Positions 3,286-14,407 of a stretch of DNA of 44,706 nucleotides are shown here, piece after piece (the first letter of the stretch is position 1; every line of letters starts with the position of its first letter). The DNA lies in NCBI GenBank assembly GCA_021454005.1, contig GCA_021454005.1_3939.1; one strand, given 5' to 3'. Source of the DNA: a phage. The position numbers were made by a program, and so were the translations under genes. The notes under the pieces are model-generated. The model was not told where the DNA came from and made no database searches. It worked only from the letters and a program-made list of their open reading frames with translations.

Positions 3286-3859
3286 AAAAGGTCTAGTTAG
3301 AACCTTAGTGGATGTTATTGGTCACAGACTAGCTCGTGATAAGAATAATAGACCAAACGTAATTAGAGCTTACCCTTCTGATAACTCAAATGACAAAGGT
3401 TTAAAACCTGACCAGCCATTTATTACCGTATATTGTCAAGATGCTGCAACACCTTATGGTTGGGTTCTTGATAAGTTTGTTGAGGATGATGTAGTTTGCT
3501 ACAGAATTACTTTTCAGATTCCTGTATTAATTACGGTCAATGGTAAAGGTGCTCACAGTATTATGCTTGAGCTTAAACAACGATTAGAGATGAGTTCAGT
3601 CAGGGATTTAATTCTTGAAGAGACAGGAGCTACAGTACTAGACACTGGAGCCATCCCAAATGACTACACTTATCTCAATACAGATTTCGAAAATTCTGCG
3701 CCTCTTGTTGTAACTCTTGTAAAAAATTCAGTCCTGAAAGATGAACGTGGAAGTATTATTGAGCGTGTCATTGTTGATGGTGAGTTGGTTTATGAAGAAG
3801 GACAAGAGCCACCAGAATATACTATCCATCTAGATGTAGACTCCAAAGGGGTAAAATAA
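3260..3859 (+). CDS. neck / tail terminator-like protein (hypothetical)
   Basis: 199 aa ORF immediately upstream of the sheath gene; position only. Confidence 0.3.
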   Translation: MQLETAELEKGLVRTLVDVIGHRLARDKNNRPNVIRAYPSDNSNDKGLKPDQPFITVYCQDAATPYGWVLDKFVEDDVVCYRITFQIPVLITVNGKGAHSIMLELKQRLEMSSVRDLILEETGATVLDTGAIPNDYTYLNTDFENSAPLVVTLVKNSVLKDERGSIIERVIVDGELVYEEGQEPPEYTIHLDVDSKGVK

Positions 3860-5212
3860 ATGTGGAATCCAATTGTTAATGTAGATATTACATTGAACAC
3901 CGCAGGAACTACAAGAGAAGGTTTTGGTTTGCCACTATTCTTAGCTTCAACAGATAACTTTGAAGAAAGAGTCCGTGGTTATACTTCCTTAACTGAAGTT
4001 GCTGAAGATTTCGATGAAAACTCTGCTGCATATAAGGCTGCTAAACAACTTTGGAGTCAAACTCCTAAAGTAACTCAGCTTTATATTGGTAGACGTGCTA
4101 TGCAGTACACTGTATCAATTCCTAATGCTGTTACTGAAAGTACAGACTACTCAATTACTGTAGCTGCTGGCGGTGGAATTTCTCAACCATACCAGTACAC
4201 AGCAGTGGAATCAGACACTGCTGAGAAAGTTTTGCAACAGTTTAAAACACAGATTGAAGCTGACCCAACAATCAAAGATAAGGTTTCTGTGAACGTAACT
4301 GGTAGCAATGGCTCTGCCACAATGATTATTACCAAAGCTGGTGATAATGACTTTGTGAAAGTAACAACCACAGCACAGACTGTGTATATTGCAAGTACAA
4401 CTGCCGATACAGCATCAACTGCTCTGGCAGCTATCGAAGCTTACTCTACTGACTGGTATTTCATTGCAGCAGAAGACAGAACTCAACAGTTTGTCTTAGC
4501 AATGGCTTCTGAGATTCAGGCTCGCAAGAAAATCTTCTTTACAGCTAACTCCGATGTAACAGCCCTGCAAGGTACAGAATTAGCCAGTGCAAATGATGTT
4601 CCAGCACAGCTTGCTAAGAGTATGTACACTCGTACAGTTTGCTTGTGGCATCACGCAGCAGCAGAAGACTATCCAGAGATGGCATACATTGCTTATGGTG
4701 CTCCATATGATGCAGGTTCAATTGCTTGGGGTAATGCTCAGCTAACTGGTGTAGCAGCTTCTCTACAACCATCTAATCAGAGACCTCTGACAAGTATTCA
4801 GAAGTCTGCTTTAGATGTACGTCACTGTAACTTTATTGACCTTGATGGTGGTGTTCCAGTGGTTCGTAGAGGGATTACTTCTGGTGGGGAATGGATTGAT
4901 ATCGTCCGTGGCGTTGACTGGTTAGAATCAGACCTGAAAACTTCTCTGAGAGACTTGCTAATTAACCAGAAGGGTGGTAAGATTACTTATGATGATACTG
5001 GTATTACCCGTATTCGTCAAGTCATTGAAACCTCTCTGCAAAGAGCAGTCAACAGAAACTTCCTGTCATCTTACACAGTTAATGTTCCTAAAGCCTCTCA
5101 AGTTGCTTTAGCAGACAAGAAAGCACGTATCCTAAAAGACGTTACCTTCGCAGGTATCTTAGCAGGTGCTATCTTGGATGTTGACTTGAAAGGTACAGTG
5201 GCTTACGAATAA
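3860..5212 (+). CDS. tail sheath protein
   Basis: 450 aa ORF followed by tube-sized ORF, chaperone pair and tape measure, the P2/Mu order sheath - tube - chaperones - TMP. Confidence 0.55.
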   Translation: MWNPIVNVDITLNTAGTTREGFGLPLFLASTDNFEERVRGYTSLTEVAEDFDENSAAYKAAKQLWSQTPKVTQLYIGRRAMQYTVSIPNAVTESTDYSITVAAGGGISQPYQYTAVESDTAEKVLQQFKTQIEADPTIKDKVSVNVTGSNGSATMIITKAGDNDFVKVTTTAQTVYIASTTADTASTALAAIEAYSTDWYFIAAEDRTQQFVLAMASEIQARKKIFFTANSDVTALQGTELASANDVPAQLAKSMYTRTVCLWHHAAAEDYPEMAYIAYGAPYDAGSIAWGNAQLTGVAASLQPSNQRPLTSIQKSALDVRHCNFIDLDGGVPVVRRGITSGGEWIDIVRGVDWLESDLKTSLRDLLINQKGGKITYDDTGITRIRQVIETSLQRAVNRNFLSSYTVNVPKASQVALADKKARILKDVTFAGILAGAILDVDLKGTVAYE

Positions 5213-5227
5213 TAGAGGTAAATTGGA

Positions 5228-5674
5228 ATGGCTATGTATCAGCAATATTCCCCTAAAGACGTTGTATGTAGCTGGAATGGTATTGCCATTGAAGGCTTTG
5301 CCCCAGACTCATTCTTGCGTCTACAGAGAACATCACCACTTGTGACACCAGTTGTTGGTGCAGGTGGTCAGGTTGCTCTAACAAGAAATGCAGACAAGAC
5401 AGGTACTATTGAGATTGAGTTAATGCAGACTTCTCTCTCTAACCAGATGCTTTCTGCAATTCAAGCTAAACAAGACAATATGGAACTTGAAGAAGATATC
5501 TCTTCTAACTTCGTAATCTACGACCCATCAGGCTCTGTTCTGGCAACCGGTATTAATGCTTGGTTGCAGGAACTACCACAGATTGAACTTGGTCGTGACC
5601 AGAACTCTAAAACTTGGATTTTTGGTTGTGAGAAGTTAGACTACACTTCTACAATTCCAGCGTCAAGTGTTTAA
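5228..5674 (+). CDS. tail tube protein
   Basis: 148 aa ORF after the sheath gene, followed by a strong rho-independent terminator. Confidence 0.5.
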   Translation: MAMYQQYSPKDVVCSWNGIAIEGFAPDSFLRLQRTSPLVTPVVGAGGQVALTRNADKTGTIEIELMQTSLSNQMLSAIQAKQDNMELEEDISSNFVIYDPSGSVLATGINAWLQELPQIELGRDQNSKTWIFGCEKLDYTSTIPASSV

Positions 5675-5685
5675 TAAATCCTATA

Positions 5686-5720
5686 AGGGGGAGACTTTAA
5701 AAGGTCTTCCCCTTTTTTGT
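5686..5720 (+). terminator. rho-independent terminator after tail tube gene
   Basis: GC-rich hairpin (GGGGAGAC / GTCTTCCCC) followed by TTTTTTGTTT. Confidence 0.6.
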
Positions 5721-5747
5721 TTCTTTTAAAAGTATTAAGGAATCACA

Positions 5748-6146
5748 ATGAAAACAGAATCTAGAGTAATTAACGGTAAGAAAGTGAATATCATTCTGCT
5801 TGGGGCAAGAGATGGTATTAAGATGTCTATGAAGTTGGGTAAAATTGTTGTTCCAACTTTTGCACAGATGCTATCAAGTCTGACTGACAAGGGTAAGAAA
5901 GAAGCTCCAATGGTTCCATTTAAAGAACTTGTTGAAGCTTGTTTTGACAGAATTGAAGAAATTAACCTTGAAGAGATGGCTACCTTATTATTTCAAGGGG
6001 CAACTGTTGACGACTTCCCACTTAATATTGATACGTACTTCCAAGCAAACTACGGTGAGTTTATTGATTACTTAGCATTTGCGCTGGAGGCAAACTTCGG
6101 AAGTTTTTTCGAAGCAAGCATTTTCAAAAGCCTAACTTCTCAGTAA
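5748..6146 (+). CDS. tail assembly chaperone (upstream frame)
   Basis: 132 aa ORF directly upstream of the tape measure gene; contains slippery heptamer T_TTT_TTC near its 3' end. Confidence 0.5.
   Translation: MKTESRVINGKKVNIILLGARDGIKMSMKLGKIVVPTFAQMLSSLTDKGKKEAPMVPFKELVEACFDRIEEINLEEMATLLFQGATVDDFPLNIDTYFQANYGEFIDYLAFALEANFGSFFEASIFKSLTSQ
6104..6110 (+). other. candidate -1 programmed ribosomal frameshift site
   Basis: T_TTT_TTC fits X_XXY_YYZ in the zero frame of ORF 5748..6146. The -1 frame is open from 6110 and continuous with ORF 6149..6388, whose ATG has no SD. Confidence 0.45.
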
Positions 6147-6148
6147 AC

Positions 6149-6387
6149 ATGGGTAACACTCTACAGACACCACTAACTGATGCTGCTGTAGAGGCAACCT
6201 ATGAAGAAGCAGACGAGATGAAATTTGTGCTTGCTATTTATGGTATGGAAGGGTGTAAAGAAACACTTGACCAACTCTTTGCTATGACATTCTCTGATTT
6301 ATTATCATTGAGACAATTTCTTGAGATTCAGAGGTCGTATAAAGAGGAAATTGCTTACAACGAACTTAGAAGAGCAGGAAAAATGTA

Positions 6388-6388
<1 letters not shown>
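6149..6388 (+). CDS. tail assembly chaperone, frameshift extension
   Basis: 79 aa ORF in the -1 frame relative to the upstream chaperone ORF, no RBS, ends at the tape measure start. Confidence 0.4.

Positions 6389-14407
<8,019 letters not shown>

What the first reader, a model, noticed from the sequence alone, without database searches (positions are those of the whole stretch)
5748..6388. Candidate -1 programmed frameshift in the tail assembly chaperone pair
The slippery heptamer T_TTT_TTC (6104-6110) lies in the zero frame near the end of ORF 5748..6146. The -1 frame is open from 6110 through ORF 6149..6388, which has no RBS of its own and ends at the tape measure start. This matches the conserved chaperone frameshift of tailed phages (lambda G/GT, P2 E/E+E').
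Basis: partly seen in the sequence, partly recalled or inferred. Interest (0 to 1): 0.4.

Follow-up and report, generated by a model that had tools for sequence, protein, structure and literature searches.

The report
Tail chaperone frameshift in Felix O1-like phage

Summary
The window is a Felixounavirus (Felix O1-like E. coli myophage). The gene order is sheath, tube, chaperone (5748..6146, Pfam Phage_TAC_15), a -1-frame ORF open to 6388, then tape measure (6388..8616). T_TTT_TTC (6104-6110) sits in phase in the 79-nt overlap. It is the only one of 49 in-phase heptamers in the window whose -1 frame runs past the stop. ATG 6149 has no Shine-Dalgarno pairing.

Comparative evidence is strong. 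T_TTT_TTY is in phase at the homologous Phe-Phe in all 30 metagenomic relatives and in phiEa21-4, P778, rV5, phiTE, PT11-V22 and H101, down to about 28% protein identity. The downstream ORF has no start codon in phiEa21-4 and has ATA in one Felixounavirus. The -1 peptide is conserved upstream of the ATG.

The event is already annotated. The fusions I predicted for phages Mushroom (same genus) and Mijalis/Moogle are identical to deposited proteins. No experimental proof was found for this group.

Best explanation: tandem tRNA-Phe -1 slippage gives a 213-aa fusion beside the 132-aa chaperone, as in P2 E/E+E'. A GGAGG upstream and a clade-specific RNA domain downstream are unproven stimulators. 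Novelty: already known. Interest is low.

The parts
5685..5714 (+). Intrinsic terminator hairpin plus T-run between the tube gene (5228..5674) and the chaperone gene. This is context: it probably lowers read-through into the chaperone/tape-measure genes.
   Evidence: Terminator scan, 13-bp stem. The same element is annotated as a terminator in Citrobacter phage Mijalis.
5737..5741 (+). Shine-Dalgarno AAGGA, 6 nt before ATG 5748. It is the single translation start for both chaperone products.
   Evidence: Sequence. Anti-SD duplex -6.1 kcal/mol. An RBS is annotated at the same place in Mijalis and Mushroom.
5748..6146 (+). Zero-frame tail assembly chaperone gene (132 aa; the 'G/E-like' short product).
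   Evidence: Pfam Phage_TAC_15 E=2.8e-19. phrog_1613 'tail assembly chaperone' E=2.6e-48.
6086..6090 (+). SD-like GGAGG, with 14 nt between it and the second base of the heptamer. A possible upstream frameshift stimulator (inferred).
   Evidence: Sequence. It meets the criterion of Sharma et al. [quoted passage not shown] It is present in the Felix/Moogle clade, rV5 and H101 but not in phiEa21-4, phiTE or P778.
6068..6146 (+). Overlap in which both the zero and -1 frames are open. From 6110 on, both frames are translated (dual-coding).
   Evidence: Nucleotide diversity among 30 unique relatives falls to 0-0.016 at 6093-6137. It is the only stretch that blastn can still align to the Erwinia phages (6093-6133, 92.7%).
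6104..6110 (+). Slippery heptamer T_TTT_TTC (zero-frame codons AGT TTT TTC). Site of the proposed -1 tandem slippage of two tRNA-Phe.
   Evidence: It is conserved in phase in 30/30 IMG/VR loci and in 7/7 deep lineages as T_TTT_TTC or T_TTT_TTT. The synonymous-site choice has a joint p of about 7e-5. H_HH.U_UU.Y is among the most efficient motifs in E. coli (PMC4066793).
6110..6388 (+). -1-frame extension (92 codons plus TAA): the 'T/E'-like' C-terminal domain of the 213-aa fusion. It includes the mechanically called ORF 6149..6388.
   Evidence: phrog_4963 'tail assembly chaperone' E=2.8e-55. The -1 peptide FFRSKHFQKP is conserved upstream of ATG 6149. The window's predicted fusion differs at 3 residues from my predicted Mushroom fusion, which is identical to the deposited Mushroom protein YP_009600435.1.
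6113..6126 (+). 5' arm of a candidate long-range helix, starting 2 nt after the heptamer. Clade-specific and unproven.
   Evidence: MFE of 6111-6240 is -38.9 kcal/mol, z=-4.4. The same helix is predicted in L026, L029 and Mijalis. The arms are almost invariant, so there is no covariation. It is absent in phiEa21-4 and P778.
6219..6235 (+). 3' arm of the candidate long-range helix.
6159..6193 (+). Inner hairpin of the candidate structured domain.
   Evidence: Two pairs change on both sides and keep pairing (6169/6184 A-U to C-G; 6172/6181 A-U to G-C). Support is weak: 16 of 500 shuffles reach the observed number of pairs with a change on both sides, counted over all 27 pairs of the tested structure.
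6388..8616 (+). Tape measure protein gene. Its ATG overlaps the stop of the -1 ORF (TAATG).
   Evidence: Pfam TMP_3 and phrog_4036. Sequence.

Best explanation

All ribosomes start at ATG 5748. Most of them terminate at TAA 6144-6146 and give the 132-aa chaperone. A minority slip while tRNA-Phe occupies the P site (TTT 6105-6107) and the A site (TTC 6108-6110). Both tRNAs re-pair one base back on TTT TTT (6104-6109). Decoding then resumes at CGA 6110-6112 and runs to TAA 6386-6388. The result is a 213-aa fusion: 121 aa of the chaperone N-domain plus a 92-aa -1-frame domain, with the junction ...GSFF|RSKHFQKP...

By analogy with lambda gpG/gpGT and P2 gpE/gpE+E', the shared N-domain would coat the tape measure protein and the extra C-domain would recruit tube protein. 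The slip frequency would then fix the ratio of the two products.

Shown here: the anatomy, the conservation of site and phase, the dispensability of ATG 6149, and the coding conservation of the -1 frame from the slip site onward. Inferred: that slippage occurs on the ribosome, its efficiency, and the roles of the two products.
For: Context:
- The order sheath, tube, TAC, -1 ORF, tape measure was confirmed by Pfam and PHROGs.
- It is the same order as P2 FI-FII-E-E'-T.

Site:
- T_TTT_TTC is in zero-frame phase inside the 79-nt overlap.
- It is the only one of 49 in-phase heptamers whose -1 frame continues past the stop.

Conservation:
- The same heptamer and phase occur in 30/30 IMG/VR relatives.
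- T_TTT_TTC or T_TTT_TTT lies at the aligned, invariant Phe-Phe in phiEa21-4, P778, rV5, phiTE, PT11-V22 and H101, at 28-52% protein identity to the window. In each, the -1 frame is open 68-89 codons past the stop up to the tape measure gene, and the +1 frame is closed.
- In P778 the -1 frame opens only 3 nt before the heptamer, which pins the site.
- The wobble base of the preceding codon is T and the first Phe codon is TTT in 7/7 deep lineages. The joint probability from local codon usage is about 7e-5.

No independent start:
- ATG 6149 has no SD (-0.1 kcal/mol).
- It is ATA in L009 and is at a different position in the Moogle-type phages.
- There is no start codon at all in phiEa21-4.

The -1 frame is read from the slip site:
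- FF[RH]xx[HRL]F[QR]KP is conserved in the -1 frame upstream of the ATG, even in rV5.
- Diversity is close to zero at 6093-6137.
- This is the only DNA still alignable to the Erwinia phages.

Prior annotation:
- A joined CDS is annotated in Salmonella phage Mushroom (Felixounavirus) and in Citrobacter phage Mijalis.
- My predicted fusions are identical to YP_009600435.1 and YP_009145710.1.
- The frameshift is stated in PMC4319497 and PMC5543628.

Motif competence:
- H_HH.U_UU.Y is among the most efficient -1 motifs in E. coli (PMC4066793).
- P2 uses T_TTT_TTG (PMC3091744; verified in sequence).
Against: - There is no direct evidence for this phage group. I found no report of the fusion protein, a reporter assay or a heptamer mutant.
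- No downstream stimulatory structure is conserved across the subfamily. The RNAalifold consensus is -0.74 kcal/mol with no compensatory pairs.
- The upstream GGAGG is present in only 3 of 7 deep lineages.
- The protein made by ribosomal slippage is identical to the one that insertion of one U by RNA polymerase would give. Conservation alone therefore cannot separate the two mechanisms.
- In Felixounavirus an ATG lies 2 nt after the zero-frame stop, so some extra reinitiation cannot be excluded.
Confidence: 0.9

Rival explanations
1. There is no recoding. ORF 6149..6388 is a separate 79-aa gene translated from its own ATG, perhaps by termination-reinitiation after TAA 6144-6146 (TAA-AC-ATG), and the heptamer is incidental.
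For: An ATG lies 2 nt after the zero-frame stop. Many public records annotate two separate genes: Felix O1 ORF158/159, dune, Alf5. PHROGs holds the 79-aa ORF as its own family.
Against: - No SD; it has the weakest anti-SD pairing of 19 starts.
- The ATG is ATA in L009, shifted in the Moogle-type phages and absent in phiEa21-4, where no ATG/GTG/TTG occurs before the conserved domain.
- The -1 peptide is conserved upstream of the ATG.
- The heptamer is conserved at synonymous sites in 7 deep lineages.
Confidence: 0.04
2. Transcriptional slippage. RNA polymerase occasionally adds one extra U in the T6 run (6104-6109), giving an mRNA in which standard translation yields the same 213-aa fusion.
For: There is a homopolymeric run of 6 T, and of 7 T in PT11-V22 and H101. 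The protein would be identical, so all the comparative evidence for a fusion fits this equally. A weak hairpin directly precedes the T-run; the terminator-like hit at 6084-6100 could favour pausing.
Against: From established knowledge, not tested here: E. coli RNA polymerase slips appreciably only on runs of about 8-9 or more A/T. The run has stayed at 6-7 over deep divergence rather than lengthening. The run always begins exactly at the wobble base of the preceding codon, the X_XXY_YYZ phase that tandem tRNA slippage needs; polymerase slippage has no such phase requirement. U_UU.U_UU.Y is a proven efficient ribosomal -1 motif in E. coli.
Confidence: 0.05
3. Chance arrangement. The heptamer and the open -1 frame have no function.
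For: In-phase X_XXY_YYZ heptamers occur about once per 270 codons in this window.
Against: The heptamer, its phase and the -1 ORF are conserved across lineages that share only about 28% protein identity. The -1 ORF is a recognised protein family.
Confidence: 0.01

Closest known systems
Annotated chaperone frameshift of Ounavirinae phages: Salmonella phage Mushroom (Felixounavirus, YP_009600435.1) and Citrobacter phages Moogle, Mijalis and Michonne (Mooglevirus)
   Same: Same genes, same heptamer and same junction. The window's predicted 213-aa fusion differs from the Mushroom protein at 3 residues. The frameshift is stated in the genome announcements.
   Different: Nothing of substance. Many other Felixounavirus records, Felix O1 included, still list two separate ORFs.
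Phage P2 gpE / gpE+E' (-1 frameshift at T_TTT_TTG; Christie et al. 2002)
   Same: Contractile-tail phage with the order sheath, tube, chaperone, -1 extension, tape measure. A U6-type heptamer lies in phase near the end of the upstream ORF. The -1 ORF ends at or over the tape measure start. No stimulatory structure is required in P2.
   Different: No detectable sequence similarity (blastp E>10). Different Pfam families: Phage_TAC_7 plus Phage_P2_GpE versus Phage_TAC_15. The last base of the heptamer is G rather than C. The products are 91/142 aa versus 132/213 aa.
Phage lambda gpG / gpGT (-1 frameshift at G_GGA_AAG; Levin et al. 1993; Xu, Hendrix and Duda 2004, 2013, 2014)
   Same: Two chaperone products from one start, encoded between the major tail protein and the tape measure. 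The ratio is set by low-level -1 slippage. Neither product is in the virion (PMC5009743).
   Different: Lambda is a siphovirus with a different heptamer and different tRNAs (Gly/Lys), and different Pfam families (Phage_TAC_2 plus Phage_tail_T). There is no sequence similarity.
TAC genes of rV5-like (Vequintavirinae) and marine myophages (PT11-V22, H101) in Pfam Phage_TAC_15
   Same: Homologous chaperone domain. T_TTT_TTY lies at the aligned invariant Phe-Phe. The -1 frame is open to the tape measure gene.
   Different: The zero-frame tail after the slip site is longer, about 25-35 codons against 13. The -1 domain is longer and only weakly similar. The public records I looked at do not join the ORFs.

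Membership tests
Conserved tail-assembly-chaperone -1 frameshift of tailed phages (Xu, Hendrix and Duda 2004) | Two ORFs lie between the major tail/tube gene and the tape measure gene. | tested here: met
   Tube 5228..5674 (phrog_280, Pfam KPP10_Orf10), TAC 5748..6146, -1 ORF to 6388, TMP 6388..8616.
Conserved tail-assembly-chaperone -1 frameshift of tailed phages (Xu, Hendrix and Duda 2004) | The downstream ORF is in the -1 frame, overlaps the end of the upstream ORF and lacks its own translation start signals. | tested here: met
   The -1 frame is open 6068..6388. No SD before ATG 6149. The ATG is missing in L009 and phiEa21-4.
Conserved tail-assembly-chaperone -1 frameshift of tailed phages (Xu, Hendrix and Duda 2004) | A slippery X_XXY_YYZ heptamer lies in zero-frame phase within the overlap. 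| tested here: met
   T_TTT_TTC at 6104-6110, phase 0.
Conserved tail-assembly-chaperone -1 frameshift of tailed phages (Xu, Hendrix and Duda 2004) | The slip site and the two-frame arrangement are conserved among relatives. | tested here: met
   30/30 IMG/VR loci and 7/7 deep lineages.
Conserved tail-assembly-chaperone -1 frameshift of tailed phages (Xu, Hendrix and Duda 2004) | The fusion protein is made at a low fixed ratio and is required for tail assembly. | not testable with these tools
   This needs proteomics, reporter assays or genetics. No such report was found for Ounavirinae.
Pfam PF21822 Phage_TAC_15 | Score above the gathering threshold of the family model. | tested here: met
   70.3 bits against a cut-off of 22, covering profile positions 1-124 of 127. 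The rV5 and PT11-V22 homologues also match.
P2 gpE/gpE+E' family (Pfam Phage_TAC_7 + Phage_P2_GpE) | Sequence homology to P2 gpE / E+E'. | tested here: not met
   No blastp hit at E<=10. P2 E+E' matches PF10109 and PF06528, and the window protein matches neither.
P2 gpE/gpE+E' family (Pfam Phage_TAC_7 + Phage_P2_GpE) | Same operon architecture and a U6-type slip site. | tested here: met
   In P2, T_TTT_TTG is in phase 0, 21 nt before the stop, and E+E' ends just inside gene T, 8 nt past its start. In the window, T_TTT_TTC is 33 nt before the stop.
Lambda gpG/gpGT family (Pfam Phage_TAC_2 + Phage_tail_T) | Sequence homology to lambda G/GT. | tested here: not met
   No blastp hit. Different Pfam families.

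The most novel reading that the evidence does not exclude
In the Felixounavirus/Mooglevirus clade, the frameshift may be tuned by an unusual stimulator. This would be a roughly 120-nt structured RNA domain closed by a long-range helix (6113-6126 with 6219-6235). The helix begins only 2 nt after the heptamer and encloses the zero-frame stop, ATG 6149 and a hairpin (6159-6193) with two compensatory pairs. It might act together with the GGAGG upstream. Sister lineages (phiEa21-4, P778, rV5) keep the same slip site without this domain. The group could therefore be a natural series for asking how much a structure adds to a U6-type site. The evidence is z-scores of -2.6 to -4.5 in four lineages and weak covariation. 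The helix arms are invariant, so the helix itself is untested.
Probability: 0.15. Interest if true: 0.3.

Novelty: already known. Interest (0 to 1): 0.12.

Why it matters
It matters mainly for annotation quality. Most Felix O1-like records, including Felix O1 itself, dune and Alf5, list two separate small genes. Some relatives leave the -1 ORF unannotated (phiEa21-4) or give it an odd start (rV5 ORF50). The comparative data collected here justify annotating a joined 213-aa chaperone at T_TTT_TTC across Ounavirinae, and a homologous T_TTT_TTY frameshift across the Pfam Phage_TAC_15 family. These phages are used in Salmonella and E. coli diagnostics and therapy and are being engineered, for example Bas63. 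Anyone recoding or deleting in this region needs to know that 6093-6146 is read in two frames. The finding opens no new question about recoding.

Tried and rejected
1. I looked for a family-wide downstream stimulatory structure. RNAalifold on eight lineages gave -0.74 kcal/mol with no compensatory pairs, so this was rejected as a conserved feature.

2. Local hairpins within 60-90 nt of the slip site in the window are no better than shuffles (z +1.2 and -1.1). A hairpin that includes the heptamer itself (6095-6114) is not significant (z 0.07) and is not conserved.

3. Rfam scans of the whole window at gathering threshold and of 5900-6500 at E<=1 gave nothing relevant.

4. A second profile-based scan of viral contigs with the seven-lineage alignment failed, because no stretch was conserved enough. 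The deep-lineage sample therefore stays at seven.

5. The +1 frame was considered as an alternative. It closes 1-11 codons past the stop in every lineage, so it was rejected.

6. I looked for other slip motifs in the overlap. There are none in phase. In P778 the -1 frame opens 3 nt before the heptamer.

7. The second terminator-like hit (6084-6100 plus the T-run) is the slip site read as a T-tract after a weak G-U-containing stem. The number of hits is within shuffle expectation, so I do not take it as a real terminator.

8. Literature searches for experimental proof in Felix O1-like or rV5-like phages, including the Bas63 and phiTE cryo-EM papers and the Bas63 gene-essentiality study, found no mention of the chaperone frameshift.

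Full report
**What the window is.** Megablast of 3800-8700 finds 298 phage records. The best is Felixounavirus LF110P1 at 98.5% identity over 100% of the query, and the rest are mainly Escherichia, Salmonella and Shigella Felix O1-like myophages. The window is therefore part of a Felixounavirus (subfamily Ounavirinae).

**Check of the observation.**
- The ORF table gives 5748..6146 (132 aa), 6149..6388 (79 aa) and 6388..8616 (742 aa), all on the + strand.
- Translation of the three frames shows that the frame of ORF 6149 is -1 relative to 5748. It is open from 6068 to TAA 6386-6388.
- The bases at 6104-6110 are TTTTTTC and the zero-frame codons are AGT TTT TTC, so the phase is T_TTT_TTC.
- The stop of the -1 ORF overlaps the tape measure ATG as TAATG.
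- The 22 nt upstream of ATG 6149 pair with the anti-SD at -0.1 kcal/mol. The 18 other + strand starts between 13 and 13248 give -4.3 to -12.6.

**Chance.** In 47 crude gene calls (about 13,300 codons) there are 49 in-phase X_XXY_YYZ heptamers. A heptamer in a 26-codon overlap is not rare, roughly 1 in 10. But the one at 6104 is the only T_TTT_TTC. It is also the only one whose -1 frame continues beyond the zero-frame stop, with 94 open codons, 80 of them past the stop. The runner-up has 37 open codons in the middle of a 489-aa gene.

**Identity of the genes.**
- 3860..5212 is a tail sheath (phrog_205; Pfam DUF3383).
- 5228..5674 is the tube protein (phrog_280; Pfam KPP10_Orf10).
- 5748..6146 is a tail assembly chaperone (Pfam Phage_TAC_15, 70.3 bits against a cut-off of 22; phrog_1613).
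- The 79-aa ORF is phrog_4963, 'tail assembly chaperone'.
- 6388..8616 is the tape measure (Pfam TMP_3; phrog_4036).
- A strong intrinsic terminator (5685-5714) separates the tube gene from the chaperone gene. It is annotated as a terminator in phage Mijalis.

**Comparative evidence: site and phase.**
- The heptamer T_TTT_TTC is in phase 0 in all 30 IMG/VR relatives, at 39-100% protein identity.
- It is also in phase in Felix O1, Mushroom, Alf5, Mijalis, Erwinia phage phiEa21-4 and Yersinia phage P778.
- tblastn finds more distant homologues at 27-32% identity. I examined four of them: rV5, Pectobacterium phage phiTE, Alteromonas phage PT11-V22 and Pseudoalteromonas phage H101. All four carry T_TTT_TTC or T_TTT_TTT in phase.
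- In these four the -1 frame is open 68-89 codons past the stop up to the tape measure gene, while the +1 frame closes within 1-10 codons.
- In a protein alignment of the seven deep lineages, the two Phe residues encoded by the heptamer are among only seven invariant columns. The site is therefore homologous.
- In P778 the -1 frame opens 3 nt before the heptamer, which leaves no other place to shift.

**Comparative evidence: selection at the nucleotide level.**
- The codon before the Phe pair encodes Ser, Cys or Gly in different lineages but always ends in T. The first Phe codon is always TTT. Given local codon usage, the joint probability over seven lineages is about 7e-5 if they are treated as independent.
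- Among 30 unique Felix/Moogle-type sequences, nucleotide diversity is about 0.06-0.25 along the chaperone gene and falls to 0-0.016 at 6093-6137.
- blastn against the Erwinia phages aligns only window 6093-6133, at 92.7%.
- Dual coding explains this. The third positions of the zero frame are the first positions of the -1 frame, and both peptides are conserved: zero frame FFEASIFK and -1 frame FFRSKHFQKP. The -1 motif FF[RH]xx[HRL]F[QR]KP persists even in rV5, where the zero-frame tail differs. The -1 frame is thus read from the slip site on, upstream of any ATG.

**Comparative evidence: the ATG at 6149 is dispensable.**
- It is ATA in one Felixounavirus contig (L009).
- It lies at a different position in the Moogle-type phages.
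- There is no start codon in phiEa21-4. There the depositors left the 236 nt between the chaperone and the tape measure unannotated.

**Prior knowledge.**
- RefSeq NC_041923 (Salmonella phage Mushroom, Felixounavirus) and KY654690 (Citrobacter phage Mijalis, Mooglevirus) carry a two-piece joined 'tail assembly/tape measure chaperone' CDS over exactly these genes.
- I built the fusions predicted by slippage at the heptamer for Mushroom and Mijalis. Both are found by exact look-up: YP_009600435.1/AJF40599.1 (213 aa) and ARB06563.1/YP_009145710.1 (212 aa). Michonne has an equivalent 212-aa entry. The deposited junction is therefore the one proposed here.
- The window's predicted fusion differs from the Mushroom fusion at three residues.
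- The genome announcements of Moogle (PMC4319497) and Mijalis (PMC5543628) state the frameshift and cite Xu, Hendrix and Duda 2004.
- I found no experimental demonstration for this phage group.

**Mechanism.**
- The simplest model is tandem -1 slippage of two tRNA-Phe from TTT TTC to TTT TTT, with the next codon CGA at 6110-6112.
- This gives 121 + 92 = 213 aa with the junction GSFF|RSKHFQKP.
- Sharma et al. 2014 place H_HH.U_UU.Y among the most efficient -1 heptamers in E. coli. They list U_UU.U_UU.C and U_UU.U_UU.U among motifs giving more than 0.1% frameshifting without any stimulator (PMC4066793).
- P2 uses T_TTT_TTG without a stimulatory structure (PMC3091744). I verified the phase and the gene order FI-FII-E-E'-T in the P2 record.
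- The functional reading is taken from the lambda work as summarised in PMC5009743: the shared domain binds the tape measure, the extension recruits tube protein, and the ratio is set by slip frequency. This is inference here.

**Possible stimulators.**
[quoted passage not shown] This is within the 6-17 nt criterion of Sharma et al.. It is shared by the Felix/Moogle clade, rV5 (GGAGG) and H101 (AAGGAG), but not by phiEa21-4, phiTE or P778. It overlaps an invariant Glu codon, so coding constraint may partly explain it.
- *Downstream.* 6111-6240 folds at -38.9 kcal/mol against -24.9 +/- 3.2 for shuffles (z -4.4). The fold is closed by a helix of 6113-6126 with 6219-6235. The same outer helix appears in L026 (z -4.5), L029 (-3.6) and Mijalis (-2.6), but not in phiEa21-4, P778, rV5, phiTE, PT11-V22 or H101.
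- The helix arms are almost invariant, so they say nothing about covariation. An inner hairpin (6159-6193) has two both-side changes. Counted over all 27 pairs of the structure I tested, the number of pairs with a both-side change exceeds shuffles only modestly, with 16 of 500 shuffles reaching it.
- RNAalifold finds no consensus structure across the subfamily.
- I treat the structure as a clade-specific candidate only.

**Rivals.**
- *Independent initiation at ATG 6149.* Contradicted by the missing SD, the dispensable ATG and the conserved -1 peptide upstream of it.
- *Transcriptional slippage on T6.* It would give the same protein and cannot be excluded by sequence comparison. It is disfavoured because the run is short; from general knowledge, E. 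coli RNA polymerase needs about 8-9 or more. The run is also fixed in the tandem-slippage phase.
- *Chance.* Excluded by conservation.

**Comparison with known systems.**
- The locus works like P2 E/E+E' and lambda G/GT.
- It is not a sequence-level member of those families. There is no blastp hit. P2 and lambda match different Pfam models from the window: PF10109/PF06528 and PF06894/PF06223 against PF21822.
- It is a member of Pfam Phage_TAC_15.
- It is the same feature as the annotated frameshift of Mushroom, Moogle, Mijalis and Michonne.

**Verdict.** The feature is already known, as a prediction and an annotation rather than by experiment. The only modest additions are two. First, the T_TTT_TTY site is homologous across the sampled Phage_TAC_15 lineages, Ounavirinae, rV5-like and marine myophages, and most public records miss it. 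Second, there is a candidate clade-specific RNA domain. Interest is low.

Noticed in passing
window 6111-6240 (helix 6113-6126 with 6219-6235; inner hairpin 6159-6193): An unusually stable predicted RNA domain lies directly after the slip site (-38.9 kcal/mol, z -4.4). The same closing helix is predicted in three sister lineages (z -2.6 to -4.5) but not in more distant relatives. Two compensatory pairs occur in the inner hairpin. A second low-diversity stretch (6198-6272) covers the 3' arm.
   Followed up: partly
window 6086-6090: [quoted passage not shown] It is also present at the same place in rV5, and as AAGGAG in H101, but is absent in phiEa21-4, phiTE and P778.
   Followed up: partly
window 5685-5714: A strong intrinsic terminator (13-bp stem plus T-run) lies between the tube gene and the chaperone gene. 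The chaperones and tape measure are therefore probably expressed by terminator read-through at a lower level than sheath and tube.
   Followed up: no
L004 (Erwinia phage phiEa21-4, EU710883) 1270-1505; L038 (rV5, NC_011041) 1524-1892; L036, L037, L039: Public records of distant relatives miss the frameshift. phiEa21-4 leaves the -1 ORF unannotated. rV5 ORF50 is given a start inside the overlap, at a CTG codon. phiTE, PT11-V22 and H101 annotate only short 3' fragments of the -1 ORF.
   Followed up: partly
L009 (IMGVR_UViG_3300045988_004167) about 1902-1904: This is a Felixounavirus contig in which the ATG equivalent to window 6149 is ATA (VNIGNTLQ). It is a natural 'start-codon knockout' of the downstream ORF.
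   Followed up: yes
window 6084-6110: The terminator scan flags a weak G-U-containing stem (6084-6100) followed by the T6 run of the slip site. This is probably a chance match. It is mentioned because a pause there would be relevant to the transcriptional-slippage rival.
   Followed up: no
cluster members: Proteins from the same 90%-identity cluster as the Felixounavirus chaperone are deposited under Staphylococcus hyicus (WP_252560994.1) and under many E. coli and Shigella assemblies. This probably reflects phage contamination or carry-over in bacterial assemblies.
   Followed up: no
window 1-44706: There are no tRNA genes and no Rfam family at gathering threshold anywhere in the window, although Felix O1-like genomes carry about 22-25 tRNAs elsewhere (PMC5543628).
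   Followed up: no
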